Notes under the pieces: generated by a model
The model's database searches: none
Told to the model about the DNA's origin: nothing
Seen by the model: the letters and a program-made list of their open reading frames with translations, nothing else
Made by a program: the position numbers and the translations under genes
Assembly: GCA_000002445.1 (NCBI GenBank)
Contig: CH464491.1
Span: forward strand, 1,344,001-1,408,000
Length of the DNA: 64,000 nt
Source of the DNA: Trypanosoma brucei
Taxonomy: Eukaryota
Reading direction: 5' to 3'
In this document: positions 1,037 through 18,749 of the stretch, piece by piece
Numbering within the stretch: position 1 is the first letter of the stretch
Layout of the letters: each line of letters starts with the position of its first letter

Positions 1037-3340
1037 CTAAAACACTTCAACATGCCTGTGGTTTTCATCATCTGCTTTACCATCTGTGAGATCACATCGC
1101 TGCTTGACTCTCATTGGAGTGGCGTCAGGGTGCTGAACATAAATCATTTCCCATCGATACTTCCCCATAACTGCTTTCCAATATTCATCACTTGGATTAG
1201 TGGTTGGATTTAAAAGTTTCTTCAGCATGCCAAGGAATGTTCCTGTCTTCGTATCATGCGATTCAGCAGTTGTGTACTGCAACATCACTATTGTCTTTTG
1301 TTTTCTCTGTTGTTTTTTATCCTCAGCAATTGCATCAGGGTCAACAACAAAGAAGGCATCCAAAACAGGGAAGTTAGGAAGCGCCTAGTATGCCTGAAAG
1401 AGACTTGGGGAACGTGTTATCATGCCACAACCGTCTGTAAAATCGGCAGCGTTGCCAAAGTTCAGGTATCTCTTCTGTACATGCCTCAAGACAGTGATAT
1501 TCTGCGCAACTTCCTGTTCCTCTACTCCCCTTTCGGGAAGTGGCTTGGTCATTTCGGTGATCGTACTCAACACTTTGGGAAATCCAAGTGCTTTTATAGC
1601 ATTGTACTCAAATAAAGCTGGAATTATCTCACGGGTAGGAATAAGCCCCGCCAACTGAGCTAAATTTTGAGCGGTTATTTCAGTTTCTCAATTATTCTCT
1701 TCTTTATGGATTCAGAGTGAGGTACGCATATGTATATCTCACCATTGTTTCTCCCACAGGCACGAACAATCTTCACGAGTTTGTGAGACGCGTCACTTTC
1801 CTTCCATTCGCCTTTGTTACCCACCACGCCAATATAGAGTTCACGTCGCTCATGGGATTTGATGGAATTTATTTCTTTGTCTATGTCGACCTCACGCGTG
1901 ACATACTTTGCTTCATCAAACACATAACGAAGTGAAGGTCCGACAAACTCCACACGGCTCTCATGCATCTCCCACTTTTCCCTCAACCCGACAGGTGTGG
2001 CTCCAGGATACAGCATGGGTCCAATACGTGAGAAGAAAGCCCGCATTTCAGTCATTTCCCAGCAGTTAACAAAGATACGTGTACATCTTTCCCTTTGCTG
2101 GAACCAGCTGTCAAAATTTCTCAAATTGGGTGAACTGATCAAAATGCTTCCCCATTTTGGAGCCACATCTGCCGGTGGCTGCTCGCCTTTGTTGACGAAG
2201 TCATAAATAACATAACCACGTGTATTAGATGATATAACCTTCATAAACGTTATAGCCGCTTCTTTACTGTACTCCCTAACTCTGCCAACGCCACCACCAC
2301 CAGATTTCTCAAATATATATGCGGCTACACCACGGAAGTACGCAACAACAGGCAACTCTTCCGCATCATAATGCAGTAAGTTGTAGAGTATGAAAGAACC
2401 CAAATTCTGAGATTTACCAATCCCAGGATTACCAATGGCAACGTATGATCGTGGAAAATAAAGACATCCCGGTAAAGCACGCTGTGTACGCCATAATTCA
2501 ACTCCACTCCTTACAACTTTCCATACGCGGAGCTCTTCTCTACGGGTGAATATTCTTTTGTTACTTCCGTCGGTAAACTTGGCTTATTATCACCCCATTT
2601 GAGATGTTAGAACCATTGCTTCAACTTCTTCCCTGCGTTCTGGTTTCTTCTCAACAGCTTCCTCAATTTCAGGGACAACATTAAGTTCTTCATCCTTCCA
2701 CATTACATTGCCACCACGCGTTCCATCAACAAACTCCATCCCGAGCAGTTGAGTTCCATTGTCAATTTCAATATGACTCCATTTCGCATTATAAACAGAG
2801 TCGTAAACTCCTGGAAGGTCAGCACCGTCAGCTAGTTAAATATATCGTTCCCCCGCCTTCCTGGCAATGCACCGTACCGTGTCCAACCTTGATGTCGCTG
2901 CGGAGCCAACTTGTTTCCTCATTTGGGCAGTTGCCTTCTCGCCCCACTGCCGCAGGGAGTAAATTCCATTACCGTTTAGATAGTTTATCCAACCTTGTAT
3001 TTCAGGCAACTGCTCACATATCCTTTATCGCTTAAACTGGAGGAGATTCTCTATGTCTTCAAGTAACTCGGCATCCCTAGTGTACCTTCCTGGGTTGGTA
3101 ACACACAAACTCATTGCTACATTCTTCATGTTGTTCGTGTTCAGAAAGAATTGCATCAGAAATTCGTGCAGGCTCATTTTAGCCAACGCCGCATAGTCTT
3201 CCAGAAGCACATCCTCAACCCTACTTTCCATCGTCCAGTTGGTGTCCCCTTCATTTCTCCACCACTTCTTTCTTTTTTTTCCTTGTACGGTCCCTTGGTC
3301 GTCCTTCCGAATTCACCCCACTTACGTTTCGTTCATACAT
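1037..3340 (-). pseudogene. Retrotransposon hot spot (RHS) protein pseudogene, broken into at least four frames
   Basis: Consecutive minus-strand ORF pieces in different frames (3231-3025, 2507-2325, 2403-1675, 1654-1385, 1363-1037) together span about 750 codons. The frame of the 2403-1675 piece continues upstream through a Walker A P-loop GNPGIGKS at about 2411-2433, which is typical of RHS proteins. The N-terminal piece (...NWTMESRVEDVLLE...MSLHEFLM...NPGRYTRDAELLEDI) resembles the conserved RHS N-terminus. An upstream out-of-frame ATG at 3340 suggests the original start. Confidence 0.6.
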
Positions 3341-4148
3341 GAAAAAGAGGTATCCGACACTGGCGGTTCAGGTTATCCATTGTGCTTTTCCACTAAATTA
3401 CACAGGATAAGATAGGGTGATGGTACATATTTGCTGAAGTGTAGTGATATCCATGCGCACACCCCGCGCTATCTTTGCAGGGGGTGCATCATATTCGGGC
3501 TTCGCCGCTCAGTGCAGGCACTTGGTGCCGTGGCCAGTTTTTGGTTGACCCGAAAATGGTTGTTGATGCAGCGCCGCATTAAAGTTTCTCCTTTGCTATG
3601 TGGCTGGATGGTGCGGCATCAGGAAAGCGTGCGGGCACGAGCGCCAGCACCAATGAGTTACGCAAGTCAGGTTACGCGCACTGGCTTATTTACCCCTAGC
3701 ATAAAAGTGTGGCGTGACAGAGTTACTAGTGAAAGCGACGATTTGCACCATATCTTGTAAATAGGCGATGGCCTGCGTATCTCAGAGGTGTGAAATGACT
3801 TCTATTCATGGATGTGCTGGTGGCCGCAAGCGTTGAAGCAACCTACTTCTACAGCTCTCATTCTTGTCCTACTCAAAAGACAGGACACCATCCGCTCATC
3901 GTCGAAGGCGTGGTGGAGTACGTCGCTTCCCTCGATCGTTTGTTCTTCGGTGGTGCCAGGGTCCAGTACCCCGTATCATCGGGGGAAGCCAAGAGCTACC
4001 AGTGTTACTCTCTTTTGGAACACTGCTTTGCTTAGACTACGGCATCGTACAGCACAGGGATCAGCAGCGTCTTGCTGGGACACCGTTTTTCGTTTGTCGG
4101 TCCCTGGGCACGTGCCAGCGTGCCATCAGCAGTATCATCCGCACTAAG

Positions 4149-4187
4149 ATGCTGCTGTCCGGTGATGTGGAAGAGAATCCCGGCCCA
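4149..4187 (+). other. 2A-like StopGo (ribosome-skipping) peptide MLLSGDVEENPGP at the start of the retroelement ORF
   Basis: Direct translation atg ctg ctg tcc ggt gat gtg gaa gag aat ccc ggc cca. The D(V/I)ExNPGP consensus is complete. The preceding residues (SSIIRTK) match my recollection of the 2A sequence reported for T. brucei TSR1/ingi elements. Confidence 0.85.
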
Positions 4188-7100
4188 TCATTGCGCGGGG
4201 TGCAGTGGAACTCCGCCGGGCTATCTCAAGGAAAGAGATTAGCACTCCACAAAACCCTTGTTGATGAGCGGATCGCCTTTTGTCTGTTGAGCGAGACAAG
4301 GATGAAACCTGGAGAGGCGGCTTGCTTTAGCGTTGCTGGCTACCAACATTACGGAATAGCTCGTAACTGCAAAGGAGGTCGTGTATCAATACTAGTGAGG
4401 GCGGACCTGCCAGTCGAGACCGGTATGGCCGTTGTTGGTCGCATTGAACAAGTGCATGCAACAATTCACCTTGCACGTGGAGCAGCGCTGACTGTCACGT
4501 CGGCATACATCCCACCAAAACACACCTTCACGGCAACTGACCTAGATACGCTTCTGACGACTGACGGTGCCCAGATCATCGGTGCAGACGCTAACGCACA
4601 CGCGTTGGCATGGGATCGCGCGAGCCCACCAAATACCAAGGGTGAAACCCTCACACAGTGGTGCATTGACAACCAGTTTCTGGTCTGCAACACTGGTGAG
4701 TGCACCAGGTACGCGCGCCACCAAGGGAAGTCCACCCCTGATGTGACACTGTCAAGGAATTGCACAGTGTACACGTGGACATCGCTGTATTCTCCCGATA
4801 GCGATCACCATCACATATTTTTCGACGTTATGGTTGGAGACGACACAGATGCACTGAGTTGCCCGCGGCTTCGAAAGCCCATGTGCGCATGGCTAAAAGC
4901 TGACTGGAGGAATTTCCGTCTCAAGGTTGACGAGTTCTGCAGGAAAATTGGTAGAGAGAAGAACGTCAACACCCTGGAACAGAAATTGAGCTCCGCCATC
5001 CGCATTGCGATGAAGGTCTCCGTCCCCCGTGGCTGCAGAGCAACGCCACCACATTGGACACCTGAGCTCGCGAAACTCGATGAAGAGATCACTGGATGCG
5101 GACCCTCCCACCGAAGGGAAAAGTTGGTAGCCACGCGTAAGCAGATCCTGGACCGTACCACAAAGAAGAGATGGAGCACACTATGCTCCAGACTTGCGGT
5201 GTCAGACCGCTGCAGTTGGCACATTGTCAAGAAGGTATATGCGCCACGACCACTAACCACACAGGCTGTACTTGTAGATAACGCGGCCATCACGGACTAC
5301 CGTCGAGCTGAGAGGTTCAATAAACTGTACTCGTCCCGCGCAAGAAGGCACCCCGACTCACACCCACCGGCACCAATAAAGACGATAGCGAGTGAGTTCA
5401 GTCCAATCACGATGGCTGAACTACGGAGATCGATCAAACTGCTACCGTGTGGATCCGCAGCCGGACCTGATTGCTTATACAACGAGGCGCTACAACATCT
5501 CGGTATAACAGCGCTGAATGTTGTTCTGAGGCTATTCAATGAGAGCCTACGAACGGGAGTCGTGCCACCTGCATGGAAGACTGGTGTTATCATCCCCATC
5601 CTGAAGGCCGGAAAAAAGGAGGAGGACCTCGATTCTTACAGGCCTGTGACGCCCACGAGCTGTCTCTGCAAAGTCATGGAACGCATAATTGCCGCAAGGT
5701 TTAGAGACACTGTTGAGTCCCAGCTGACGCCGCAGAAATCAGGCTTTCGCCCCGGATGCTCAACGCTCGAACAGCTGCTGCACGTCCGCGCTGCCCTCTG
5801 CCGTCCCACGCACCAATCACGTACGGGTGTTGTATTCGTCGACTACGAGAAGGCATTCGTTACTGTAGACCACGACAAAATTGCGAGGGAAATGCACAGA
5901 ATGAAGGTATCACCCCACATTGTGAAGTGGTGCGTATCATTTCTGAGTAACCGAACTGGCAGAGTGAGATTCAAGGAGAAGCTTTCCAGAAGCAGAACAT
6001 TTGAGCGAAGAGTGCCACAGGGAACTGCCCTTGGCCCAATCATGTTCATTATTGTCATGAACTCGTTGAGCCAGCGCCTTGCAGAAGTGCCGTTACTGCA
6101 GCACGGATTCTTTGCAGACGACCTAACGCTACTTGCGAGCCACACAGAGAGGGATGTCATCAACCACACACTACAATGCGGCCTAAACGTGGTGTTACAG
6201 TTGTCAAAAGACTACTTCATGTCTGTCAACGTAGCGAAAACAAAGTGCACACTCTTCGGGTGTATAGAGCGCCACCCCCTTACATTACAACTGGACGGCG
6301 AAAGAATAGGAGCTGACAGAACACCGAAGCTTTTAGGAGTAACATTCCAGTGTCTGCAAGGGATGGCAACACATGCGGCCGAAACGAGACGCAAGATGGA
6401 CTTCAGACTACTGCAGATAGCAGCCATCTCAGCTTCTACATGGGTACCAAGACGACAAGTGCTGAGAACTTTTTATCTAGCGCTCGTACAGGCACACACC
6501 ATGTATGGCATTGAGGTATGGTACTGGGACGCTTCGGAACGAAGTCGCGACCTCCTTGCATCAGCACAACACAAAGCCAGTCGCATCATAGCCGGCATAC
6601 CGCATGGGACGCGCAAAGAGGACTCTCTGCTGGAAGCAAACCTCCTGCCACTCAAGACGACCACTCTTGTGCGCAGCATGAAATTCATGCTGATGTGTGA
6701 GTCACGAGGCGGATGTTTGCGGCGCAGTGCTGAGGAAGTATACCACAGCAAACACCCAGTCAGAGTCTTACATTCCCGCATCATGCGGTCTTATCCCCAC
6801 CTCCGCATTGAGCCACGCGAGCACCCACTAGAGACATCGACGCTCCGCCACAGCTGCCGACCGCTATTTCACACGCAGATAAAGCCTGTGTGCGCTGATG
6901 ACCCTGACGATGTCAAAAGGGAGGCTTCCGAAAAGTGGATTGAACGGCATTTTGTACGGAGGGGGAAGGAGCTACCGCGGCGAGAGCACTACGAATTGTG
7001 GACTGATGGATCCGTGTCCCTCGGTGAGAAGTCCGGAGCAGCTGCCCTGCTCTATAGAAACAACACGCTGATTTGCGCACCCAAAACTGGAGCAGGGGAA

Positions 7101-7223
7101 CTCTCATGCAGTTACAGAGCGGAATGCGTAGCATTAGAGATAGGACTGCAACGGCTGCTGAAATGGCTTCCGGCATACAGAAGCACACCGAGCAGGTTGT
7201 CCATCTTCTCTGACTCGCTGTAA
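4149..7223 (+). CDS. Retroelement polyprotein segment 1: 2A peptide, AP endonuclease-like domain, reverse transcriptase, N-terminal part of RNase H; ends at an in-frame TAA
   Basis: Frame 0 is open from 3864 (TTG in the ORF track). The first in-frame ATG is at 4149, directly before the 2A peptide. RT motifs include FADD (6111-6122). TDGS of RNase H lies near 7000-7020. A TAA at 7221-7223 is followed in the same frame by the rest of RNase H. Confidence 0.8.
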   Translation: MLLSGDVEENPGPSLRGVQWNSAGLSQGKRLALHKTLVDERIAFCLLSETRMKPGEAACFSVAGYQHYGIARNCKGGRVSILVRADLPVETGMAVVGRIEQVHATIHLARGAALTVTSAYIPPKHTFTATDLDTLLTTDGAQIIGADANAHALAWDRASPPNTKGETLTQWCIDNQFLVCNTGECTRYARHQGKSTPDVTLSRNCTVYTWTSLYSPDSDHHHIFFDVMVGDDTDALSCPRLRKPMCAWLKADWRNFRLKVDEFCRKIGREKNVNTLEQKLSSAIRIAMKVSVPRGCRATPPHWTPELAKLDEEITGCGPSHRREKLVATRKQILDRTTKKRWSTLCSRLAVSDRCSWHIVKKVYAPRPLTTQAVLVDNAAITDYRRAERFNKLYSSRARRHPDSHPPAPIKTIASEFSPITMAELRRSIKLLPCGSAAGPDCLYNEALQHLGITALNVVLRLFNESLRTGVVPPAWKTGVIIPILKAGKKEEDLDSYRPVTPTSCLCKVMERIIAARFRDTVESQLTPQKSGFRPGCSTLEQLLHVRAALCRPTHQSRTGVVFVDYEKAFVTVDHDKIAREMHRMKVSPHIVKWCVSFLSNRTGRVRFKEKLSRSRTFERRVPQGTALGPIMFIIVMNSLSQRLAEVPLLQHGFFADDLTLLASHTERDVINHTLQCGLNVVLQLSKDYFMSVNVAKTKCTLFGCIERHPLTLQLDGERIGADRTPKLLGVTFQCLQGMATHAAETRRKMDFRLLQIAAISASTWVPRRQVLRTFYLALVQAHTMYGIEVWYWDASERSRDLLASAQHKASRIIAGIPHGTRKEDSLLEANLLPLKTTTLVRSMKFMLMCESRGGCLRRSAEEVYHSKHPVRVLHSRIMRSYPHLRIEPREHPLETSTLRHSCRPLFHTQIKPVCADDPDDVKREASEKWIERHFVRRGKELPRREHYELWTDGSVSLGEKSGAAALLYRNNTLICAPKTGAGELSCSYRAECVALEIGLQRLLKWLPAYRSTPSRLSIFSDSL

Positions 7224-7679
7224 ATGTTAACAGCACTGCAGACAGGCCCCCTAGCCGTAACGGACCCAATTCTGAGACGACTATGGAGGCTTCTGCTTCA
7301 AGTTCAGAGAAGGAAGGTGCGTATCCGACTGCAATTTGTGTTTGGCCATTGTGGCGTGAAACCGAATGAGGTTTGTGACGAAATGGCCAAAAAGGCCGCA
7401 GATTTACCACAGTTGCGAGACACATGGATCCCCGACATCATTGCTTATGCGAAGCGAGTGCTTAGGTCGGAAGAAGTCCATGAGAACACTCATAGGTTTG
7501 GTATCACGGGCAACCACTTTCCAACAAAACATAGGGAAGAACTGACGAGGGAAGAAGAAACGGCACTGGCACGCTTTCGGGTTGGGTCTTCAAGACACTA
7601 TGGATGGATGTTGCGAAAGATCAACCCGAGTGTAGTGTACCCTCACAGTGCCGATGGTGTAACCCGCAACATGCAGTGA
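7224..7679 (+). CDS. Retroelement polyprotein segment 2: C-terminal part of the RNase H domain (same frame as segment 1, beyond the in-frame stop)
   Basis: Translation contains VRIRLQFVFGHCGVKPNEVCDEMAKKAADLPQ, an RNase H-type signature. The frame is identical to 3864-7223 (both start positions are divisible by 3). Confidence 0.6.
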   Translation: MLTALQTGPLAVTDPILRRLWRLLLQVQRRKVRIRLQFVFGHCGVKPNEVCDEMAKKAADLPQLRDTWIPDIIAYAKRVLRSEEVHENTHRFGITGNHFPTKHREELTREEETALARFRVGSSRHYGWMLRKINPSVVYPHSADGVTRNMQ

Positions 7680-8916
7680 TAGGACCAACAATACAAACAC
7701 AAACAGCCTACCTGTTGCGACACGCACTCTTCAGAGAACCTCCGAACCGACCAAATGTACGGAGTGTGATGCCACATACCAATGCCGCTCGAGTGCTGTA
7801 ACGCACATGGTAAACAAACATGGCTTTGTGCGAGCTGATGCCCTCCGGAGGATCAAATACGGCGATGCAACACCCGCAGTGGATATCCCCCCGGAGCCCC
7901 CTCCAGTGGTGGCGATCGTTCCTCTACCATCGAGCACACGAGTCCCGATGAGACCGCAGGTGTTTCATTGTACCCTCTGTGCCTCCAAATTCGCAGTGCA
8001 AGGCCGACTATTACACCACCTTAGAACAATACATGGCATAGGCAGCGGTAGTTACCGCGTGAAAAGGGAGCGAGAGAACGAGGACTCAGTGCAAGGAGAT
8101 GGTAGAGCCCCAGCAGCGCCAGCCTCTCAGGATACACGGAAGCTGCCGTTTCAATGTGACCTGTGCGAGGCGAGCTTCGGTACACGCTCTTCCCTGTCAC
8201 TACACAAGAAATTCAAACATAAGAGCATAGTGACGGAGGACGGTACCGTGGTGGTGGTGCAATTCCCTCGTAAGCGTGCCCGTGAGGGAAACGTTGACGT
8301 CCCGGGGAAGGGCGAGGTGCAGTGCGGTGTGTGCCAAAAAGTGCTCAGTTGCAGGGACTCCCTCATCCGACACTGTAAGGCTTTCCACAAAGGTGAGGGA
8401 GTCGAGCTTAAATGCAGCAAAAGCACAAAATTGTGTTCCACGGATTCCCCGCATACAAATGCATCCATGTTGGTGTGCCCGACATGCGGAAGGCAGTGTG
8501 CTAGCAAAACTGGCCTCACCCTACATCAAAAGAAGATGTACGGTATGAAGGTAGAGCGCGCTGTTACCAGCCAACGCGGCGACTGCGAAGAAACGTCGCT
8601 GTACCTGATGAGCTGGCCCGGTTTGAAGGAGTTACGTGTCAGGTTTGCGGTAGAAGGTGTATGTGTGCAGGATGTATGCTTCTCCAAAAGGCTGGCGCAG
8701 TTTCTCATTGCGGTTGAACGGAGCCGGCCGCAGGTGAAGTCCTCACCTAAGGTAACAGTCATACAACCCACTCTCCCTTCTGCAACTTTCCCCCTTATTG
8801 CCGAGTGTGGAGCTTGCAGGAAAGGCACTGGACGCAGGAATAGTCCAGAAACCCTCAGAGACAGAGGGGGTATGCAGTCAACAAGCAACAGAAACAGAAA
8901 GAGGGGGAGAGAATAA
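7663..8916 (+). CDS. Retroelement polyprotein segment 3: C2H2 zinc-finger domain (five fingers), in a different frame from segment 2
   Basis: This frame is open from 7663 and overlaps the end of the RNase H frame (7679), implying a frameshift lesion at about 7636-7680. Fingers: CTECDATYQCRSSAVTHMVNKH (7756-7821, upstream of the ORF-track start at 7807), HCTLCASKFAVQGRLLHHLRTIH, FQCDLCEASFGTRSSLSLHKKFKH, CGVCQKVLSCRDSLIRHCKAFH, CPTCGRQCASKTGLTLHQKKMYG. Confidence 0.65.
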   Translation, partial: PATCSDRTNNTNTNSLPVATRTLQRTSEPTKCTECDATYQCRSSAVTHMVNKHGFVRADALRRIKYGDATPAVDIPPEPPPVVAIVPLPSSTRVPMRPQVFHCTLCASKFAVQGRLLHHLRTIHGIGSGSYRVKRERENEDSVQGDGRAPAAPASQDTRKLPFQCDLCEASFGTRSSLSLHKKFKHKSIVTEDGTVVVVQFPRKRAREGNVDVPGKGEVQCGVCQKVLSCRDSLIRHCKAFHKGEGVELKCSKSTKLCSTDSPHTNASMLVCPTCGRQCASKTGLTLHQKKMYGMKVERAVTSQRGDCEETSLYLMSWPGLKELRVRFAVEGVCVQDVCFSKRLAQFLIAVERSRPQVKSSPKVTVIQPTLPSATFPLIAECGACRKGTGRRNSPETLRDRGGMQSTSNRNRKRGRE

Positions 8917-9920
8917 TAAACGAATAACAAAAATCAAAACAAAAGGATTGCTAATTGACATCTTTTGGAGAGTCTGGGGTGGGGGGCTTCTCGCCCCATC
9001 TGCTGTATTCCGTTCAAATGCGGAGCTACAAAAAAAAATTATAGAGGGTGTGTTAGGATGAATAAAAAAGGGAGACTCTGCCACAGTCGCCAGACCGATA
9101 GCATCTCAGGGCTCTACGGTGATGGCTGACGGCCGTGCCAGTGGGGGGAAACTCTCCCGAAGGCACGAAGAAAATTTCAAAAAAAAAACTTGCTGTTTCG
9201 ACCAAATGAACTTTGCAGCGACATCCAGAGTGGTGACCGTTGATGCAATCACTGCCCGGAGCTGACATTGCCGGCTACCCATCTCGTGGCCTCCGGGTGC
9301 GGTGCATATGGTGATAGGACTCGGTCGATCGCTTGATTTTTAGTTGGTACGGGGTCGGCTCCGCTGCATGGTGCTGCGCGTATAGAGTTGCTCACGGTGG
9401 AGCCGTTGTTCCTCTTGCGTTGCTGATGGTGACATTTTTCGACCTTTATATTGATGGGTGAAACGATAAGACGAAAAAAAGGTGTTTGTAGCGATTGTAG
9501 TGGTGGCGCTTCTTTTTCCCCCCTATTTTTAACGGGTGTCTAATACATAGTCACTGTTTATGCTACGCTGCACTACTCTCTTCGTGCGGGCGTGAGGCAA
9601 CGTTAAGTTTCTGCTACATATGTATCGCATAGACTGATTAACAAGCTTATCATAACCTATTTATCCCTCCGTTAGAGACTTTCCTATAACGAGGCGTGAT
9701 GTTTCTATATTCTTCATGGCTCTGCAATCACCCTGTGCTATTTTTGCCCCAGATTTGCTAATGCTCACTTCTGGGAAGTATATTCCCCTCGTGGACGACT
9801 CAAATATTTCAAGAGCTGAGGGACACGGTGCTTCAACCCCTGTAACCCTCTTTACCGCTGCGCATATTTATTAATTTAGGATTTCGAGGAGCCCTTGATG
9901 TGGTATGGTATGTGTCCTTG

Positions 9921-9962
9921 ATGTGACTGTTATTCTCATTACATCTTTATTTTCCATGTGTG
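9921..9962 (+). promoter_or_regulatory. Polypyrimidine tract and downstream AG; candidate trans-splicing signal for the first gene of the plus-strand unit
   Basis: tgtccttgatgtgactgttattctcattacatctttattttccatgtgtg, followed by gcAAGaat, about 25 nt upstream of the ATG at 9986. This is the typical kinetoplastid splice-acceptor arrangement. Confidence 0.45.
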
Positions 9963-9985
9963 TCGCAAGAATATAGGTAAAGAAA

Positions 9986-11323
9986 ATGTTTCGGTGTTAT
10001 GGACGAAAACTGAGTCCCCAACTACGTGACATTATACACCGACTGGACTTTATTGAAAAACAGATTATTGATCTCAAGGCTTTTCGAGATGCGGTTCAGG
10101 CGACGTTGCCAAGCGTTGCGACCGCTGCTGATGCTCTAGCTAGGAAGCGCCAAGAAACAGCAAACCAAATCAATGTAGTGGCGAAGGATCCTTTGACGTC
10201 CGAGGAGTTCGTAGAACTGAATCAATATTATGCCGTTCAAATGGTTCAAACGTTAGCACTTCGTAATATGGTGCACATAAGGACGCATGAGGATCTATAT
10301 TCACACGCCCGATTAATTCACAGAGAGTATCTTGTACGTGTTGCACAGCGGGCCCGCGCACTTAGTCATGCATGTGTGGGGTTGTCTCAGATGCCTTCTA
10401 TTCAGGAACTACGCAGGTGGTATGAGTGGAGTTTCCATGATGTGAGGAGTACGAAAGCTCCAGTCGATGCTGAGGGCGCTCTGAAATTTGATACACTAGT
10501 TAGACGTCTTTTTTTGAGGCACTACAACGTGAGCGCACTTCTTAGCGAGGGCATGCACGAACTTGGGGAGCGCCAAAGGTGGGATGAACACTCTCACTCC
10601 GATGACCTCCTTACCGAAACATTTGACGAGCTTCAACGGTTCTTCGATGAATTTTGTATGGGTCGTGTGAGGTTGCGTTTTCTCGTGGGAAATTATGTTC
10701 AGTTGTCGACGCAAATTTTGCGGGTGGAACCACGGTACTCTGAGAAGCTTACAGCTCCCATGTATTTTGACCACGACCCCGAGAGCTTTGTTGGACAAAT
10801 ATGCCAACGATGCTCATTAATAAAACTAGTAGAGTGCGCGATACGTTCTGCAAGGGCGTCTTACAGTGAGTTGGGTATTGAGCTCCGTGTAGCTGTAGAT
10901 CCTGATGCAACGCTATCTGGGATTCCATACATTACGTATGATATTTTATCTGCGTTAATTGACGATGCCATTCAGGCTAATGTTCTACGGCAGGAAAAGT
11001 ATGGAATACCATTCACGCCAGTTGTGATCACTATTGCTCAACGCAATGCCAATGAGCAGTTTAGTGTCCGTGTTTCCGATACTGCCGGCGGGATGCCCCT
11101 TCATCTTGCCCGACACGTGTTGAAATATTGGTTTGCGTACAAGTGCACGGATGACATGTTGAAACTCGCTAAAACATGGACACATAGTCCCATACGTCTA
11201 CCATATGCTTACTGTGCAGCCAAGGTTTTAGGGGGGGATATATCAGTGGTTTCCATTGATGGTTATGGCACCGACCGTTTTCTTCATCTTCCGTCCGACG
11301 GGATAGAGAGGGTTCGTTTTTAG
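9986..11323 (+). CDS. Mitochondrial-type protein kinase of the PDK/BCKDK (GHKL ATPase) family
   Basis: ATG checked at 9986. The C-terminal HATPase-like boxes are VRVSDTAGGMP (11066-11098, G1 DxGxG) and DGYGTDRF (11258-11281, G2 GxGxG). RLRFLVGNYVQL resembles the PDK RIGIRMLINQH motif. The N-terminal helical domain resembles the BCDHK/PDK dimerisation domain. Confidence 0.55.
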   Translation: MFRCYGRKLSPQLRDIIHRLDFIEKQIIDLKAFRDAVQATLPSVATAADALARKRQETANQINVVAKDPLTSEEFVELNQYYAVQMVQTLALRNMVHIRTHEDLYSHARLIHREYLVRVAQRARALSHACVGLSQMPSIQELRRWYEWSFHDVRSTKAPVDAEGALKFDTLVRRLFLRHYNVSALLSEGMHELGERQRWDEHSHSDDLLTETFDELQRFFDEFCMGRVRLRFLVGNYVQLSTQILRVEPRYSEKLTAPMYFDHDPESFVGQICQRCSLIKLVECAIRSARASYSELGIELRVAVDPDATLSGIPYITYDILSALIDDAIQANVLRQEKYGIPFTPVVITIAQRNANEQFSVRVSDTAGGMPLHLARHVLKYWFAYKCTDDMLKLAKTWTHSPIRLPYAYCAAKVLGGDISVVSIDGYGTDRFLHLPSDGIERVRF

Positions 11324-13788
11324 CAGTCAGCTTTTGCTAATCTTAATTTGTTTAACTGAGATACTTACGTTTACACCTAAGCGGGAGAGCGAACTGACAC
11401 ACAGTTTACTACTTTTTTCTGAACTTGTTAACTATCGCTCGATTTTCGTTAGCATTCACCATTTGTTTTACTCGTATTTTAACGTGGAATCCTCTAATGA
11501 AATTACGGAAACGAACGACTTTATCTTTTCCTGCTTATGGACATTTACCACCTTACTCTTCCTCTCTATTTTTTGCTTTGCGTTCCTCTGTTCGTGGAAG
11601 GTGGTTACTTGATGCTTTACCCTCATAATTATATCTGTACGACTACAAAATTTTTGTTCACCATTAGCAAGCATAGCCGTTGCCTGTTTCTACAAAAAAA
11701 AAACAACAAGCGACAGGGTAAGTGAATGTATAGATTAAGCGGGATATTTATGTGAAAGTCTACTAGAGGAAAGCCGTTCAAAAGTCCAACTTCCCCCCAC
11801 ATAGGACATTTTAGTTGTGCTGAGAGGTGTACCTGCTAACTCGTGCGCTCGTGCGGGACTACAACGTGATCAAGGCAGTTGTTGAGAAGTATAAGTAAGT
11901 TCTTACTGTTTTCTTTCCCTGAGATTAATAAAGACAAGGGTTCTCGGCGGAGGGGTATCGAAAAAAGTGATCATGTAGAGGGATATATGCGCTTGAAAAC
12001 TGCCGTTAGCGTTTCTTCTGGAGCGAAGATCATGTTTGTGGAAGTCACTGGTGATGCCGTGCTGTACCCACGACGGGCTGTATTATCTTACATTGCTTCT
12101 TGCGAGCCCCACGGTATGCAGTTTGATATTTGCCCGCCCTTACTCTCCGAGAAACACACATGTGCCCTGGATGTTGTTGGGTTGCTCCGGGGCGTAATAT
12201 GCATATCGTCTTTAACCCTGGGAATGCGCAGTGTGGCGGGCTGCATGAGAGTTAGCAAACCACACCTTACTCGCCAGCAAAGCTATGTTTTCTTTCCTTT
12301 TTGTTTTATTCCCACTTCTTCAGTGCCGTTTGTTGCTGGTCGATATTCCGCCGTAATTAAAGAGAAAATGATTCGTATGCACGGTAAACACTACTTTTGT
12401 ATAAAAGTGCCAGTGTTGCGCCTTACAGCTTTCCAAGGCGTGCAGGGCGGGGGGGGCAGGGTGTTATTCGAGGTCACTTGAGTGGCTGCGGCGCGGTGAG
12501 TTGTGTTCTTTTCAGATCTAAAAAGGCCGCGGTAATGATGTGTACGATGGATTCGTTTTTTAAGGCGATGACGAGCTGGTAAAGTGAGAAAAAGTTGTGC
12601 GGTGCCGACGTTGGTGCATTCATCCCAATTATAGGAAGAGCCTTCTATCTCTCCATCACATATTTTGGTTGTAGCAACGATTTTTGTTGGATGTATTTGG
12701 TGACTTTAGGCATATTCTTCTTTGCGGATATGGATATTGAATGAGGGCATATAGTTGTATTCCATCACGGTGATCTGCGACAGGTTTTAAATAAATTAGC
12801 TTTAGCCCCGTTGTTAACATCCGTTTTGAGACCCGTGTACGACATTTGGGTGACACCTTCATGATTCTATGCTCGAATAACTGCCTTTTCATTGCTAGAG
12901 ACTTGATTACTGGATAATTATACAAACATTTGAAGGGAAGGGCGCGTTACAGAGGTAAACAAACACACAACGCAAATTTTCGATTGCTGACCTTTTTTGC
13001 TCTCAGAGACGCCGAGGGAAAGGAAGCGAAAAGCCTTCTTCTGTGAAGACGTGAGCGCAAGGCTCACAGCAAAGAGGGAGGTTGCAGTGATACGAATCGA
13101 CGGTAAACGTGCTTGTGTGTTTTTCTGTGGCGATGTTTTTAAATATTACTGTTTATGAACCACTGACGTCAGTAACACAGATTTCACTACTTATATGGTC
13201 TCCTCTTTTTATTTCTTTAAGTTTGTTGTAGAGAATGTGAAACATATGAAGGTAATACAACTGTTCTAACTTCCCCCCTGGGTGACAGTATAGTTCAACG
13301 AAGAAGACGGAAGGCCATGACCTGTGGTGCTGTACAGGTGGGATACTTCGCACAAAGGGCGCATAACGGAAAATATTGCGTATGTTAAACGCGATTTTAT
13401 TTTGTTTCTTTTGAGTTCTTCAGACGTTTGTCTGTACAGGTGGAAAGGGGGAAAAGACTCGTATTTTAATTTTACCGCAAAAAAAAAAAAGAAATTAAGT
13501 TTTTGTTAACTAGTGTGTGACTCACATAAGGGAGCACACTTAGATGAGCGGATCACATGAGGTGGGATAAAGGTGCAGGCGTGTGTCCATGATGCTCCTT
13601 TCTTCTTCTTTTTTTTTTTTTGAGAGAGTTTTGTGGTTGTCATCTGTCTTTTATTCTGTTGGCCTTATGCTCTTTCTTGGTTGAGTGAGGTAGTAAAGGG
13701 TATGGTGGGGTATTGTCGTGAAGAGGAGCTACGGTTGCGTTTTGTGCATGATGGATTGCAATGGAAACCGTAATGTTACCTGTGTTTA

Positions 13789-13812
13789 GTGTGTGTGTGT
13801 GTGTATGTGTGG
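13789..13812. repeat. (GT)n microsatellite
   Basis: gtgtgtgtgtgtgtgtatgtgtgg, read directly from the sequence. Confidence 0.9.
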
Positions 13813-14890
13813 TTGTGTGCCGTCATTGACAGGAGATCGCGTCTCTTGTGAGAGTCTATATTACAGTTCGGCGCAACGGTTTTGCCGCGTTAACGCTGCT
13901 GGAATCTAATCAGAGATGTTGGGATGCCTTGAAGTGTATGTTTGCTGCTAAGGTTGTTCGCAGTGTTGTGCCTCTATTGTGTTGCGTAAGTAAAGGGTCG
14001 ACTGCCCTTGTTGCCGGTGTGGGAAGTAATGAGTCCGTGCATGCTTTCCCTTGTTCGCGTTTGTGGCGTATGGGTTGTGTGTAAATCGTTATTCTTTTCT
14101 GTTAATCATCGTGAGGAGCATGTTGATATAATTTTTGGTCTTTTTCGTTCATTTGTGACAGGGGGTCAGCTCCAGGTGGTGCAAAAGTACCAGAATGAGT
14201 GGTGTAATGCCGAGGCGGATGATTCCACTGCGGCACCATACGATGCTGTCTCAAAAGGTTGAAGCGTCCTTTCACAGTGTGTTTGGGGGGGGGGTTCTGC
14301 TTTGTTGAAGTGAGCGCTGGTGGTGTTTTGATTGCAAGTGCTGAACAAATGGCAACATTACATGATTGCCCTTGAAGTGTCTGTATACACCCTGATGGGT
14401 GAGCGGAGCACATTTCTTTATGTTAGACGGCGGTTGTGGTGCTGAAATTTATCATAGCTGCCTGTGAGTGCCCATCTCGACCATCCAAGGATACTTAGAT
14501 ATTGTTCACTGTTTCCATATTCTTTGTTATTTTTTAAAGGCGAGGTTAAGTAAAAGTAGATTGCTGCATATTGCATTTGTGCGTAGGCCAGTACCGGCGG
14601 TTGATCTCACGAAAATTACTTTTATTTATTTTTGTGGTTAACAATAACCCCTCTCCTGCCTGGTTATTCCCAACGAGTGTGTATGGATCTGATGTTCTCT
14701 TCCAACCACAGTGATTGGACCCACTGCTGTATTGGTCGGCGCAGAATTTGCCGAAGCTTTTGTTTTAATATCTACCTTGCGGTAAGAGGAATCTTGCGAA
14801 TAACGTGTAAGCAAAAGTGTCAAAAACCGAACGCTTCGATGTCCCCCTCCAAATTCGAAGTTTGAGAATTTACCTGGATGCTGGTGCCTA

Positions 14891-14930
14891 ACCTACCCTA
14901 TTTCCCCCTTTTTTCCCCTGCGATTGTGTC
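14891..14930 (+). promoter_or_regulatory. Polypyrimidine tract upstream of the ANTH/CALM gene (candidate splice-acceptor signal)
   Basis: ctaacctaccctatttcccccttttttcccctgcgattgtgtctcgtgtAG, followed about 50 nt later by the ATG at 14987. Confidence 0.45.
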
Positions 14931-14986
14931 TCGTGTAGTCAGGTTGCCGAAAGGCTCAAAGTTAATTACATCGCAACATCGGTTCG

Positions 14987-16465
14987 ATGAACTCTAAAGA
15001 CACGAATGAGTTGAAAAGGGGTGCTGGGTACCTAAAAGAAAAAGCAATAATTGGGCTTACGCGTGTGACGGGAAATGAACTGGATCGTGCCATATACAAA
15101 GTTACAAGTCACAAGCTTAAGGCCCCTAAGGAGAAGCACATGCAGCGGGTTTTGGCCGCGACACGCGGATATAGTAGCCAGAAAACTCACAAAGGTCGCA
15201 ACACATGCGAGTACATTGTTTCTGAGTTTGAGAAGCGTCTTCATACACACAACTGGATCGTTGTATTGAAAACGTTGGTGACGTTTCATCGCTTAATGAA
15301 GGATGGTTCGGACGAGGTGAATAATTGTATACAGCAGAACCGTAATATTTTTTGCTTTCGCAACATAAAGGACCTTTCAGAGAGTTCCGAAGGGGCCGTA
15401 CAAAGTGTGTTTATCCGCCAGTATATGTATTACCTCGAGGAGCGTTCCTCTTCTCAACGGAAGCTAGGTGCTTCTAAACGTATGGAAAACAGTGAATTTG
15501 GCGTTTTTCTTCGGTCCCTCGATGTTGACACTCTTGGCCCCGTCTTTGAGTCGCTGTTGGTGCAACTTTCTGCACTTGTCGAGGTACAGTACAAGGAGGC
15601 TATAGTTGACAACTTTTGCACGATGGAGGCTTTTCAAAGGCTGGTGAACGATGGGAAGCTACTCTATCAGATACTTTCAGACCGGGCAATCTTTATACTT
15701 GACGGCTTTAGTGGGTTTACTCTTCAGCAGAAAAAGGATTGGGTAAGGCGGTATCGGGAATACACTGTAGTGGGAGAGAGACTGCGCTTACTTTTCGAAT
15801 CAATCGCAAACTCAAAAAGGATGTTTGACGAACCTCCTCCACCCCTAAAGGCGCTTCCCGGGTCTTTATTAGAGAGCCTGGAGAGAGAAGTCCGTTTGAG
15901 TAGCATAGCTCACGAGGACATAACCGAGACGCTCGAGAGTCTGGGTATAACTGCCGATGAAAAGACCCCACTGAAGGCGACAACTTCAGATGGCACAATG
16001 GCAATATACTCACCAGTGGCGACTGAGAAGGCGCTTGACACCACAGAGACAGGAGCACCTCCGGTCACTGAGCCCAAAAAAGAGTCTGGTTTCTCAATTG
16101 ATGATCTGTTTGTACCTCCTCCTGTCACCGACTCTCATCAACAAACATCTTATAACCCGTCCACAATACCTCAAGGTACCCAGATGGAGGGGCCCCTTAT
16201 TCAAACTGAGGCGAACCCAAACATGACCTACACTTTCCCAACCGGGGTTCCTGTTGGTCAAAACTTCTTCGGCCAACAACCGACAGGGAATTCATTGACG
16301 TGGGAGGCCCCCAGCCCTGCACCGGGTTCGATGCAACCGCAGTCTGCGGCGGGCATCGTTCCCTCGTGGAGTGATTCGTCAGCATCATGGGGTCGAGGTA
16401 ATTGCGGTAGCAATACTGTGGATCCGTTTAAGGATCTTTACGCGAGCCAGAAGGGAGGCCAGTAG
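14987..16465 (+). CDS. ANTH-domain clathrin assembly protein (CALM/AP180-like)
   Basis: ATG checked at 14987. The N-terminal ...LTRVTGNELDRAIYKVTSHKLKAPKEKHMQRVL (15098-15139) matches the ANTH signature (K/A)TxH plus a basic PIP2-binding patch. The C-terminal half is low-complexity and Pro/Gln/Ser-rich with DLF/DPF-like motifs (DDLFVPPP, VDPFKDL), typical of clathrin adaptors. Confidence 0.7.
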   Translation: MNSKDTNELKRGAGYLKEKAIIGLTRVTGNELDRAIYKVTSHKLKAPKEKHMQRVLAATRGYSSQKTHKGRNTCEYIVSEFEKRLHTHNWIVVLKTLVTFHRLMKDGSDEVNNCIQQNRNIFCFRNIKDLSESSEGAVQSVFIRQYMYYLEERSSSQRKLGASKRMENSEFGVFLRSLDVDTLGPVFESLLVQLSALVEVQYKEAIVDNFCTMEAFQRLVNDGKLLYQILSDRAIFILDGFSGFTLQQKKDWVRRYREYTVVGERLRLLFESIANSKRMFDEPPPPLKALPGSLLESLEREVRLSSIAHEDITETLESLGITADEKTPLKATTSDGTMAIYSPVATEKALDTTETGAPPVTEPKKESGFSIDDLFVPPPVTDSHQQTSYNPSTIPQGTQMEGPLIQTEANPNMTYTFPTGVPVGQNFFGQQPTGNSLTWEAPSPAPGSMQPQSAAGIVPSWSDSSASWGRGNCGSNTVDPFKDLYASQKGGQ

Positions 16466-16566
16466 TCGAGTGGCAGGATGAAAACGTTTTCCAATTATTC
16501 AGGTCGTGTGTTGGTGCAGTGGTTGGGTCTGGGTAAAATACTGTGTCCTTATCACTGAGGTAGTGA

Positions 16567-16590
16567 ATATATATATATATATATATATAT
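16567..16590. repeat. (AT)n microsatellite
   Basis: atatatatatatatatatatatat, read directly from the sequence. Confidence 0.9.
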
Positions 16591-18006
16591 GTTGATGTGT
16601 GCCTGATAGGCGAGATCACCACCTATTGGCCCGTGCGGCGACTGCTTTCCTTCTTTTGTGCGGTACTAGGAGACTGAGGGTTGTAAGGGACTTCCCCTAT
16701 TCCTATGTTGCCCTTTTGGGACGGCCTAGCGAGGGCGTGACAGTAGTGGTGCTACTTGAGGTGGGAAAGATTTTGGAACCTCTGTATTTGCGTTTGGTAG
16801 AGGTGGGTTGGCCGCACATCGGGGGTGGACGAAGAAAAATCAGTTGTGTTTTTTTGATTACTGTTTTTGTTCTCGGGGATGCTTATAGCGGTGCACGGTT
16901 TTCGAATCTGGTGCCCGGGCTACGAAAGGGTGTTTTGAGGAGGGGGAGGATCAAAAGTAACGCCCTTTTCGTAATTCTGATGCTTATTACCCTCCATTTT
17001 ATTGATGCTCGTGTTTCGAGGTTGTTTAATGGTGGCATTTCCCTTGTAGGGAAGCTTCTCTTTGTTGTTTGTGGCCCTTTTTTGTTCCTTAAGGAAAACC
17101 CGGACCGCACCCGTACTTGCATGAATCAGGTTTTTACGCAATAGGTCGGCGGTATTTGGGGTCCTCTACCGCGACCCGAAACCGACACCCAAACAAGTTA
17201 TCATTTCTCTTTTTTTTTTTTTTGCGGGACTTTATTCTTGTGGTATAGAATGGCTTGGATTCCCCCCTTACTGACTGTACTCCCAACACGCTCGGCCCTT
17301 CCGTACGGCCGCATTTTCGTGTAGGCGACGCAACCGGCGGGTGGTGGTTGTTTTTATGCTTTGCGTGGGGCTTGGTGACCTGTGGCACATGTTCGGTGAC
17401 TTCAGGTCAAGAATTATTTTTTATGTGCCCGCTTTCAGTTGATTCTATTCGTACCACCACTTTCCCCCTTCTATTCATAACTTAGTAGACGGTATTTGTG
17501 AAAATGTGCTAGGGAATTGTCGCACTTCAGTGCGTTGTGGGCGTTTTTGAAGATACGGAGTTCTTGTTAATTCCCACGTTGACATACTTTATTTGCTTTC
17601 TTACTTGTGCTTCAGATTCCTAAGCTCCTCAATATTTTTGAGTGTTACATTTTTTTAATGATGTTGTTGTACTACGTAGGGCATCCATGGAAGAGCAAAG
17701 TAAAGCATATATCATTTGTGATGGGTGAAGGAAGGGCGTTTTGACAAGTGCAATGCATGCCCGTGGTCGCTGCAGTTTTTTGCCGTTGTATGACCGCTCA
17801 CAAAACTCCCATCCCTCGAGTGAGTATGCACGTTGCTCAATCGTAGTGTGGTGCGTGTGGTGCCCGTTATTTTCGTACTTTTCAAACATTTTCATGCACC
17901 GAGTATATGCTGCAGTTTCCGCTCATATTTCATTTTACCCCCGATTTTTTATTCTTTGACTTCCTCCCTCCAGTTGTTCAACGATTAGAAGCGTTCCGAC
18001 AAGGTT

Positions 18007-18531: not shown

Positions 18532-18645
18532 AGCAACCAAACTGTTGACGGTATGACTCAGCGTAGTTTCTAGCGAGGTTTTCCCCCTCTTAATGTTAAG
18601 TAGGTATGCGTACGGAGCGAGCCTGTCATTCCACCCGTATGCTGT

Positions 18646-18705
18646 CTTCTCATTTCTTGGCCATCCTTTCCTTTGTTCTCACTTTTCTATATTATTATGA
18701 TTGTC
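18646..18705 (+). promoter_or_regulatory. Polypyrimidine tract upstream of RPL17 (candidate splice-acceptor signal)
   Basis: cttctcatttcttggccatcctttcctttgttctcacttttctatattattatg, about 50-100 nt upstream of the ATG at 18750. Confidence 0.45.
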
Positions 18706-18749
18706 ATTCGGTATGTTTGATTTCTGTTGCAAGGGGTAGGGATTAGGCC

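What the first reader, a model, noticed from the sequence alone, without database searches (positions are those of the whole stretch)
3356..9187. Nearly intact ingi-clade retrotransposon disabled by only two lesions
A single frame carries 2A, AP endonuclease and RT uninterrupted for 3.3 kb. It is then broken by one in-frame TAA (7221-7223) in the middle of the RNase H domain. The RNase H frame ends at 7679 while the C2H2 zinc-finger frame is already open from 7663, implying an indel at 7636-7680. Beyond these two lesions, the conserved catalytic residues I checked (the RT FADD box, RNase H TDGS and HCG motifs, and all five zinc fingers) are retained. This looks like a recent copy, a copy maintained by gene conversion, or a sequencing or assembly artefact at two sites rather than an old decayed element. 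The ORF track hides the fifth zinc finger (7756-7821) because it starts the segment at the downstream ATG at 7807.
Basis: partly seen in the sequence, partly recalled or inferred. Interest (0 to 1): 0.5.

Follow-up and report, generated by a model that had tools for sequence, protein, structure and literature searches.

The report
Decayed, 5'-truncated ingi retrotransposon copy
This is an ordinary, already catalogued kind of dead copy of the Trypanosoma brucei "ingi" jumping gene: it is missing its first 25 bases and start codon, is broken in three places rather than two, carries many damaging amino-acid changes, and is old enough to be shared by three T. brucei lineages.

Summary
The window is T. 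brucei brucei TREU927 chromosome 11, and the element is a copy of ingi (Tbingi), the known 5.25-kb LINE.

The raw observations hold. One frame is open from 3837 to 7220 and carries the 2A motif, the AP endonuclease and the RT. There is a TAA at 7221-7223, and the frames change around 7663-7679.

The boundaries and the "only two lesions" reading do not hold:
- **Extent.** The element runs 3950-9188 (5,239 bp), not from 3356. The stretch 3547-3918 is an older, inverted, degenerate ingi-like fragment next to an RHS pseudogene.
- **5' end.** The copy lacks the first 25 nt of canonical ingi (CCCTGGCGATG...), so it has no start codon and no 5' third of Pr77.
- **ORF breaks.** The ORF is broken three times: the TAA, a 5-bp duplication at 7629-7633, and a 1-nt deletion near 7706. 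The CRWC segment lies in the third frame.
- **Missense changes.** Eight missense changes hit positions invariant across the ingi clade, including AFD>AFV in the RT. The last His of the fifth zinc finger is lost.

The same insertion sits at the same site in T. b. gambiense and T. b. equiperdum. Substitutions seen only in the window copy fit neutral decay (30.6% synonymous, 27.9% expected). Its lesion count is mid-range among eight copies.

Verdict: already known, low interest.

The parts
3950..9188 (+). The ingi (Tbingi) element proper: 5,239 bp, lacking the first 25 nt of the canonical 5.25-kb element.
   Evidence: blastn against five paralogous ingi copies and the orthologous copy starts at 3950 and ends at 9188-9199, at 95-96.5% identity. 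The 5' and 3' ends are shown.
3950..4183 (+). 5' RIME-A-like half, including the residual 79-bp signature (Pr77) positions 26-79 at 3950-4003. The first 25 nt (CCCTGGCGATGCCGGCCACCTCAAC, which contain the initiator ATG) are absent.
   Evidence: nhmmer with a profile of the first 260 nt of five paralogues gives model positions 26-259 on window 3950-4183, E 2e-79. The same junction is present in the orthologous copies L004 and L005.
3997..4041 (+). Patch of 13 substitutions found only in this allele.
   Evidence: Eight-way alignment. The patch is absent from the orthologue, from all paralogues and from every T. brucei N-terminal ingi/RIME protein retrieved.
4164..4187 (+). 2A ribosome-skipping motif DVEENPGP, intact.
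   Evidence: Motif search. 2A activity in Ingi is reported in PMC3708506.
4203..4817 (+). AP endonuclease domain. Carries G149R at 4380 in the invariant GGG(V)SILV motif.
   Evidence: Pfam PF14529 and PF03372; substitution table.
5616..6347 (+). Reverse transcriptase domain. FADD is intact at 6111-6122. Q601K (5736), D642V (5859, AFD>AFV), G692R (6009) and W756L (6201) fall at invariant positions. L573P (5652) falls at a position conserved in 9 of 11 distant homologues.
   Evidence: Pfam RVT_1, E 5e-39.
7002..7379 (+). RNase H domain (TDGS, AECVAL, SDSL, GHCG...D), interrupted by the stop codon.
7221..7223 (+). Nonsense mutation TCA>TAA (Ser1096>stop), specific to the TREU927 allele.
   Evidence: The orthologues and all paralogues have TCA.
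7629..7633 (+). 5-bp tandem duplication (AGTGT). It shifts the frame from 0 to 2 and is specific to the TREU927 allele.
7693..7707 (+). In-frame 6-nt CAAACA insertion, shared with the orthologues and with paralogue L008, followed by a 1-nt deletion near 7706 (CCCC>CCT) that shifts the frame from 2 to 1. The deletion is specific to the TREU927 allele.
7756..8541 (+). Five C2H2 zinc fingers (7756-7821, 7969-8034, 8155-8220, 8323-8388, 8476-8541). The fifth has lost its second His (H1532Y at 8539-8541).
8596..8619 (+). C-terminal conserved H-x4-C motif, SLHLMSCP>SLYLMSWP. Both the His and the Cys are substituted (H1553Y, C1557W).
   Evidence: Invariant in 7 ingi copies and in all 9 distant homologues aligned at these positions.
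8929..9188 (+). 3' RIME-B-like half, ending in an A10 tail (9179-9188). The ORF stop codon is at 8914-8916.
   Evidence: nhmmer with a 3' profile, E 2e-93.
3547..3918 (-). Older, inverted, degenerate ingi-like AP-endonuclease fragment (DIRE-like).
   Evidence: tblastn with the intact ingi protein, residues 105-251: 31% identity, 4 stops, E 4e-9 to 9e-9. blastn shows an inverted match between 3815-3919 and 4244-4348.
1675..3231 (-). RHS (retrotransposon hot spot) pseudogene fragments. Context only.
   Evidence: Pfam RHSP E 2e-48 (1678-2403), RHS_N (2593-2739), DUF7578 E 2e-11 (3028-3231).

Best explanation
Window 3950-9188 is a fixed, retrotransposition-incompetent copy of Tbingi, the 5.25-kb autonomous LINE of Trypanosoma brucei, in TREU927 chromosome 11. 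It lies just upstream of the pyruvate dehydrogenase kinase gene and in the same orientation as the gene cluster.

Shown:
- The copy lacks the first 25 nt of the element. It therefore lacks the initiator ATG at nt 9-11 and the 5' third of the Pr77 promoter / HDV-like ribozyme hallmark.
- The same truncated junction is present in T. b. gambiense and T. b. equiperdum, so the insertion and the truncation predate the split of these haplotypes.
- Each allele has since collected its own lesions. TREU927 has TCA>TAA, a +5 duplication and a -1 deletion. The equiperdum allele has 3 stops and a -2 deletion.
- Substitutions unique to the window copy have a neutral synonymous fraction.

Inferred:
- The copy was either dead on arrival (5'-truncated reverse transcription) or lost its 5' end and target-site duplication through an early deletion.
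- It cannot make an ORF product or a correctly processed RNA.
- It is probably only co-transcribed with the polycistronic unit and feeds the ingi siRNA pool.
For: - **Source of the window.** Nine window ORFs are exact matches to TREU927 chromosome 11 proteins.
- **Identity and extent.** The element is 95-96.5% identical end to end to five paralogous ingi copies, including one with an intact 1,656-aa ORF.
- **Truncated 5' end.** A profile of the 5' end matches from model position 26. All five paralogues start CCCTGGCGATG.
- **Shared insertion.** The orthologous locus in L004 and L005 has the same junctions.
- **Lesion census.** Window copy 3; orthologue 4; paralogues 0, 1, 1, 6, 7 and 7.
- **Amino-acid changes.** 71 differences from the consensus, counting the stop. 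Eight missense changes are at positions invariant across the distant homologues aligned there, and a zinc-finger His is also lost.
- **Neutral pattern.** Window-only substitutions: 88 across the element (1.68%), 85 of them in coding codons, split 26 synonymous to 59 nonsynonymous. That is 30.6% synonymous against 27.9% expected under neutrality, p = 0.63.
- **Typical age.** Divergence from the consensus is about 2.5%, against a published INGI divergence peak of K2P about 3 in T. brucei (PMC12278014).
- **Canonical features from the literature.** Length and ORF (PMC3447711), TSD and target signature (PMC3820030), Pr77 and ribozyme (PMC4035085), 2A (PMC3708506).
Against: - No clean 12-bp target-site duplication: 7 of 12 matches at the expected position, reached by 31 of 2,000 shuffles. 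The ingi4 target signature (GGxT at -19 to -16), seen upstream of four or five of the five paralogues, is absent. The history of the 5' junction is therefore unresolved.
- The orthologous alleles (96.0% identical) are no closer to each other than paralogues are (95.5-96.8%). The ingi differs more between alleles (4%) than the flanking non-coding DNA does (2-2.8%). Some ectopic exchange therefore cannot be excluded.
- The 13-substitution patch at 3997-4041 is not explained by uniform decay.
- The consensus rests on only six paralogues, none from TREU927.
- Raw reads could not be checked.
Confidence: 0.9

Rival explanations
1. One reading: a recent, nearly intact and potentially autonomous ingi copy, separated from function by just two point lesions.
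For: A 3.4-kb uninterrupted frame. The 2A, FADD, TDGS and HCG motifs and four of the five fingers are intact. There are only three ORF breaks, and all three are absent from the orthologous alleles.
Against: - The 25-nt 5' truncation removes the ATG and the start of Pr77 and is shared by all three lineages.
- There are three ORF breaks, not two.
- Eight substitutions fall at clade-invariant residues, including the RT AFD Asp and the C-terminal H/C motif. A zinc-finger His is also lost.
- The insertion is shared across T. brucei subspecies, with 4% divergence between alleles.
- Copies that are really young look different: L006 has 0.48% singletons and a perfect TSD.
Confidence: 0.03
2. The copy is being homogenised or maintained by gene conversion with other ingi copies. 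On this view it would look young despite sitting at an old locus.
For: - The orthologous alleles are no more similar to each other than to paralogues; the identity matrix is star-like.
- 27 window-private variants are shared with at least one paralogue, and of the 24 that fall in coding codons 18 are synonymous and 6 nonsynonymous.
- Small paired variants are shared with L003 (6445/6446, 7376/7379) and with L008 (6791/6794).
- The dense patch at 3997-4041 could be a short tract from an unsampled donor.
Against: - No run of consecutive sites matches a single paralogue.
- The 88 singletons (1.68%) are as many as in other dead copies and are neutrally distributed between synonymous and nonsynonymous sites.
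- Lesions and invariant-site hits persist uncorrected.
- No donor for the patch was found among eight loci or among database proteins.
Confidence: 0.1
3. The stop codon and the frameshifts are sequencing or assembly artefacts of the reference, and the real copy has an open ORF.
For: All three ORF breaks are private to the TREU927 sequence. Two of them are small indels in short repeats, which are error-prone contexts.
Against: - The allele differs from the orthologues at about 200 other positions across the element and at 2-2.8% in flanking non-coding DNA. It is therefore a truly divergent haplotype, not a lightly mis-read one.
- The nine flanking genes are exact matches to deposited TREU927 proteins.
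- Even with the three sites repaired, the copy lacks an ATG and the start of Pr77 and carries the invariant-site substitutions.
Confidence: 0.05

Closest known systems
Tbingi (ingi / TRS-1), the autonomous LINE of Trypanosoma brucei, ingi4 subclade
   Same: 95-96.5% nucleotide identity over the whole 5.24 kb to other ingi copies. Same order: 2A, AP endonuclease, RT, RNase H, CRWC, five C2H2 fingers, H-x4-C. RIME-like halves at both ends and an A-rich tail.
   Different: - Lacks nt 1-25 (the ATG and the 5' end of Pr77).
- The ORF is broken by one stop and two frameshifts.
- Eight substitutions fall at clade-invariant positions, and a zinc-finger His is lost.
- No clean 12-bp TSD and no ingi4 target signature upstream.
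L1Tc of Trypanosoma cruzi (ingi6 subclade)
   Same: Same clade and architecture: the Pr77 hallmark, an N-terminal 2A, and APE-RT-RNase H-zinc finger in a single ORF (PMC4035085, PMC3708506, PMC5814959).
   Different: A different species and subclade. No L1Tc sequence was compared directly. The nearest non-brucei proteins found are only 38-41% identical (T. vivax and T. congolense).
DIRE (degenerate ingi/L1Tc-related elements)
   Same: Non-functional ingi-clade remnants. The inverted fragment at 3547-3918 fits this class: 31% amino-acid identity with multiple stops.
   Different: The main element is far too well conserved to be a DIRE. It is about 2.5% from the ingi consensus, and all domains are recognisable.

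Membership tests
Tbingi (T. brucei ingi LINE) | Element of about 5.25 kb, homologous end to end with reference ingi copies | tested here: met
   5,239 bp aligns without large gaps to five paralogues and to the orthologue at 95-96.5% identity. Published length is 5.25 kb (PMC3447711).
Tbingi (T. brucei ingi LINE) | RIME halves at both ends (about 250 bp each) | tested here: met
   Profiles of the first and last 260 nt of the paralogues hit 3950-4183 (E 2e-79; the first 25 positions are missing) and 8929-9186 (E 2e-93).
Tbingi (T. brucei ingi LINE) | Complete 79-bp signature / Pr77 hallmark at the 5' extremity | tested here: inconclusive
   Only positions 26-79 are present. CCCTGGCGATGCCGGCCACCTCAAC is absent in this copy and in its orthologues. 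It is a truncated member, not a different family.
Tbingi (T. brucei ingi LINE) | Coding content: APE, RT, RNase H and C2H2 zinc-finger domains, with an N-terminal 2A | tested here: met
   Pfam hits and motif positions. tblastn against an intact ingi protein gives 92.8-94.6% identity.
Tbingi (T. brucei ingi LINE) | A-rich 3' tail | tested here: met
   A10 at 9179-9188, at the same place as the tails of the paralogues.
Tbingi (T. brucei ingi LINE) | 12-bp target-site duplication | tested here: inconclusive
   GTTTGTTCTTCG against CTTGCTGTTTCG gives 7 of 12 matches, reached by 31 of 2,000 shuffles. Paralogues L006 and L002 have perfect or near-perfect TSDs.
Tbingi (T. brucei ingi LINE) | ingi4 target-site signature upstream (…GTxGGxTxxx, then the 12-nt TSD; PMC3820030) | tested here: not met
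   GGxT at -19 to -16 is present upstream of L001, L006 and L008 and, shifted by 1 nt, upstream of L002. The window has CTCG there. This is a property of the insertion site, not of the element, and it fits a remodelled 5' junction.
Potentially functional (autonomous) ingi | Single uninterrupted ORF of 4,971 bp / 1,657 aa starting at the ATG at nt 9 | tested here: not met
   The ATG is absent. There is a stop at 7221 and frameshifts at 7629-7633 and about 7706. The reference ORF size is from PMC3447711. An intact example, P0038, has 1,656 aa.
Potentially functional (autonomous) ingi | Conserved catalytic and structural residues of APE, RT, the zinc fingers and the C-terminal H/C motif | tested here: not met
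   G149R, Q601K, D642V, G692R, W756L, G837V, H1532Y, H1553Y and C1557W.

The most novel reading that the evidence does not exclude
The patch of 13 substitutions in 45 bp (3997-4041), found only in the TREU927 allele, is a short gene-conversion tract copied from an unsampled, divergent ingi/RIME/DIRE lineage. On this reading, together with orthologous alleles being as divergent as paralogues, it would show that ectopic conversion keeps reshuffling even dead ingi copies in T. brucei.
Probability: 0.2. Interest if true: 0.2.

Novelty: already known. Interest (0 to 1): 0.08.

Why it matters
It matters little beyond correct annotation. Ingi is a long-characterised element, and published work states that all ingi, RIME and DIRE copies of the TREU927 genome have been identified and annotated (PMC2323293).

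The useful outcome is corrective:
- The element's boundaries are 3950-9188.
- It is a dead, 5'-truncated, ancestrally shared copy.
- The apparent near-intactness is the normal state of T. brucei ingi copies. Lesion counts of 0 to 7 were seen among eight copies, and the published divergence peak is about 3%.

The locus could serve as a small neutral-rate marker between T. brucei haplotypes.

Tried and rejected
- **Start at 3356.** A profile of canonical ingi 5' ends finds nothing there. The best 12-mer match between its flank and the 3' flank is non-adjacent and at chance level. Rejected.
- **Other copies in the window.** I looked for other ingi, RIME or DIRE pieces by self-blastn, tblastn with nine ingi-clade proteins, and profiles of both ends. 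Only the inverted fragment at 3547-3918 turned up.
- **Rfam.** Scans of the element, of a canonical ingi 5' end (L002) and of the whole window gave no family hit. The Pr77 ribozyme could therefore not be tested by covariance model.
- **Donor for the 3997-4041 patch.** None was found among eight loci or among database proteins.
- **Conversion tracts.** I looked for runs of variants shared with a single paralogue. None was longer than two sites.
- **dN/dS.** dN/dS against the consensus is 0.45. I rejected this as evidence of constraint. It mixes inherited master-lineage variation (18 synonymous, 6 nonsynonymous) with singletons that are neutral.
- **Literature and look-ups.** Bringaud et al. 2009 (Eukaryot Cell) could not be retrieved. 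An exact look-up of the PDK product for the source contig failed. The source was identified through cluster membership instead.
Full report
**Origin of the window.** Nine large ORFs of the window are exact matches to deposited proteins of Trypanosoma brucei brucei TREU927 on a 5.26-Mb record. They include pyruvate dehydrogenase kinase EAN79441 and AAA ATPase Tb11.02.2550. The window is therefore TREU927 chromosome 11. The best protein match of the element is a T. b. equiperdum 'reverse transcriptase' at 91% identity. T. vivax and T. congolense relatives are 38-41% identical. The element is ingi (Tbingi), the classical 5.25-kb LINE of T. brucei.

**The observation.** One frame is free of stops from 3837 to 7220. 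TAA follows at 7221-7223. The same frame is open over 7224-7676 with stops at 7677 and 7680. Another frame is open over 7663-8913. Pfam finds the endonuclease and RT domains in the long ORF, the end of RNase H after the stop, and C2H2 fingers in the last segment.
- DVEENPGP at 4164-4187
- FADD at 6111-6122
- TDGS at 7002-7013
- GHCG at 7344
- a zinc finger at 7756-7821

**Boundaries.** I retrieved the DNA of five full-length paralogous ingi copies (L001, L002, L003, L006, L008) and a partial one (L007). L002 encodes an intact 1,656-aa ORF. Every full-length alignment begins at window 3950 and ends at 9188-9199, at 95-96.5% identity.
- All five paralogues extend a further 25 nt upstream, CCCTGGCGATGCCGGCCACCTCAAC, before their flanks diverge. 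This stretch holds the ATG of the canonical ORF (MPATSTWCQGP…).
- A profile of the first 260 nt matches the window from model position 26 (3950-4183, E 2e-79). A profile of the last 260 nt matches 8929-9186 (E 2e-93).
- The element is therefore 3950-9188 (5,239 bp) and lacks its first 25 nt. That removes the start codon and the 5' third of the 79-bp signature, Pr77. Published work assigns Pr77 both promoter and HDV-like ribozyme activity (PMC4035085, PMC1874656).
- The TTG 'start' at 3864 and the open frame over 3837-3949 lie in flanking DNA and are fortuitous.

**What lies in 3356-3949 and further upstream.**
- tblastn with the intact ingi protein finds a degenerate AP-endonuclease fragment on the minus strand at 3547-3918. 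It is 31% identical over 147 residues, contains four stops, and scores E 4e-9 to 9e-9. This is an older DIRE-like remnant in inverted orientation.
- Further upstream, on the minus strand, lie fragments of an RHS pseudogene: RHSP E 2e-48 at 1678-2403, RHS_N at 2593-2739, and DUF7578 at 3028-3231.
- Retroelement remains next to an RHS pseudogene, at the head of a plus-strand gene cluster, is a familiar T. brucei setting.

**Lesions.** Against the paralogues and orthologues the ORF is broken three times, not twice:
1. TCA>TAA at 7221.
2. A 5-bp tandem duplication (AGTGT) at 7629-7633, which moves the frame from 0 to 2.
3. A 1-nt deletion near 7706 (CCCC>CCT), which moves it from 2 to 1. It sits next to an in-frame 6-nt CAAACA insertion.

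The segment between the two shifts, which encodes the conserved PQCRWCNPQH motif (7649-7660), is in the third frame.

**Missense load.** Translated in the consensus frame, the copy differs from the six-paralogue consensus at 71 positions, counting the stop. Eight missense changes hit residues invariant in all the distant homologues aligned at that position. Seven of them are also invariant in all seven other ingi copies; G837V recurs in paralogue L003:
- G149R (endonuclease GGGVSILV)
- Q601K (RT QxGF)
- D642V (RT AFD>AFV)
- G692R (RT GVPQG)
- W756L
- G837V
- H1553Y and C1557W (the C-terminal H-x4-C motif)

H1532Y removes the second His of the fifth C2H2 finger, so not all five fingers are retained.

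**Age.**
- The orthologous locus upstream of the PDK gene was fetched from T. b. gambiense DAL972 (L004) and T. b. equiperdum (L005). Both carry the same ingi with the same truncated 5' junction (…TTGTTCTTCG|GTG…) and the same 3' flank. The insertion and the truncation predate the separation of these haplotypes.
- The TAA, the +5 duplication and the -1 deletion are absent from both orthologues. The equiperdum allele has its own three stops and a 2-nt deletion.
- Relative to the paralogue consensus, the window copy has 114 substitutions not shared with the orthologue and 16 shared ones. The orthologue has 84 private ones.
- The window copy has 88 substitutions (1.68%) found in no other copy, 85 of them in coding codons. 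These split 26 synonymous to 59 nonsynonymous. That is 30.6% synonymous against 27.9% expected for unconstrained mutation at the observed transition bias, p = 0.63.
- Total divergence from the consensus is about 2.5%. This is close to the published INGI divergence peak of K2P about 3 in T. brucei (PMC12278014).
- Among the eight copies, ORF-breaking lesions number 0, 1, 1, 3 (window), 4, 6, 7 and 7. A 'nearly intact' look is therefore the norm for ingi, not a distinguishing feature.

**Points that do not fit neatly.**
- There is no clean target-site duplication: 7 of 12 matches at the expected position, reached by 31 of 2,000 shuffles. The youngest paralogue, L006, has a perfect one.
- The ingi4 target signature (GGxT at -19 to -16; PMC3820030) is visible upstream of four or five of the five paralogues and absent here. 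I cannot decide between a 5'-truncated insertion and an early deletion of the 5' end together with its TSD.
- The two orthologous alleles (96.0% identical) are no closer to each other than paralogues are (95.5-96.8%). The ingi differs by 4% between alleles, against 2-2.8% in neighbouring non-coding DNA and 0.45-0.85% in coding DNA. This fits a deeply divergent TREU927 haplotype, with the ingi evolving at or slightly above the local neutral rate. Some ectopic exchange cannot be excluded.
- I found no conversion tracts.
- A patch of 13 substitutions in 45 bp (3997-4041) is private to this allele. No donor was found among the loci or among database proteins.
- Rfam has no model that recognises either this 5' end or a canonical one.

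**How it works.** A functional ingi is transcribed from Pr77. Its RNA 5' end is defined by the Pr77 ribozyme. A single 1,657-aa polyprotein is translated, with 2A-mediated skipping near the N-terminus, and the element integrates by target-primed reverse transcription with a 12-bp TSD (PMC3447711, PMC3708506, PMC3820030, PMC4035085). This copy lacks the ATG and the first 25 nt of Pr77. It terminates in the RNase H domain, loses frame twice before the zinc fingers, and carries substitutions at invariant endonuclease, RT and zinc-binding residues. It therefore cannot be autonomous; this much is shown. Because it is in the sense orientation within a plus-strand gene cluster, it is probably co-transcribed and contributes to the abundant ingi siRNAs. 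That is inferred from PMC3447711 and was not tested here.

**Verdict.** This is a correctly recognised family with wrong boundaries and a wrong lesion count. It is an old, neutrally decaying, 5'-truncated ingi copy of a kind already described and annotated in this genome (PMC2323293). Interest is low.

Noticed in passing
window 1675-3231 (minus strand): Fragments of an RHS (retrotransposon hot spot protein) pseudogene: RHSP P-loop domain (E 2e-48), RHS_N and DUF7578, in separate short ORFs. This stretch is also the most divergent part of the locus between TREU927 and gambiense/equiperdum (90.5-93% identity over 2335-2999).
   Followed up: partly
window 3547-3918 (minus strand): Inverted, degenerate ingi-like AP-endonuclease fragment (31% amino-acid identity, four stops). 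It ends 32 nt from the 5' junction of the ingi. Its missing N-terminal part was not found downstream of the ingi, so the ingi did not simply split it.
   Followed up: partly
window 3810/3811: The TREU927 allele lacks 73 bp that are present at this point in both T. b. gambiense and T. b. equiperdum.
   Followed up: no
window 3997-4041: 13 substitutions within 45 bp of the ingi 5' region. They are private to the TREU927 allele and are not found in the orthologue, in six paralogues or in any retrieved T. brucei ingi/RIME N-terminal protein. This could be a short conversion tract from an unsampled donor or a mutation cluster.
   Followed up: partly
window 9189-21300 against L004 and L005: The gambiense and equiperdum haplotypes are 99.9-100% identical to each other here. 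TREU927 differs from both by 2-2.8% over most of the adjoining non-coding DNA (9189-14986), less beyond 16.5 kb, and by 0.45-0.85% in coding DNA. TREU927 therefore carries a markedly divergent haplotype at this locus.
   Followed up: partly
window 44000-47000: A 3-kb AT-rich stretch (GC 0.35-0.37) full of short low-complexity repeats (AT, GT, A-rich and T-rich units). It lies inside a gene-free gap of about 5 kb between the ORFs ending at 43933 and starting at 49145.
   Followed up: no
proteins P0074 and P0075 (T. b. gambiense), aligned in A1: Short annotated 'T. brucei-specific' proteins follow the ingi N-terminus up to GDVE and then diverge into A-rich-encoded sequence. They look like RIME-encoded ORFs whose internal deletion junction lies inside the 2A motif.
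   Followed up: no
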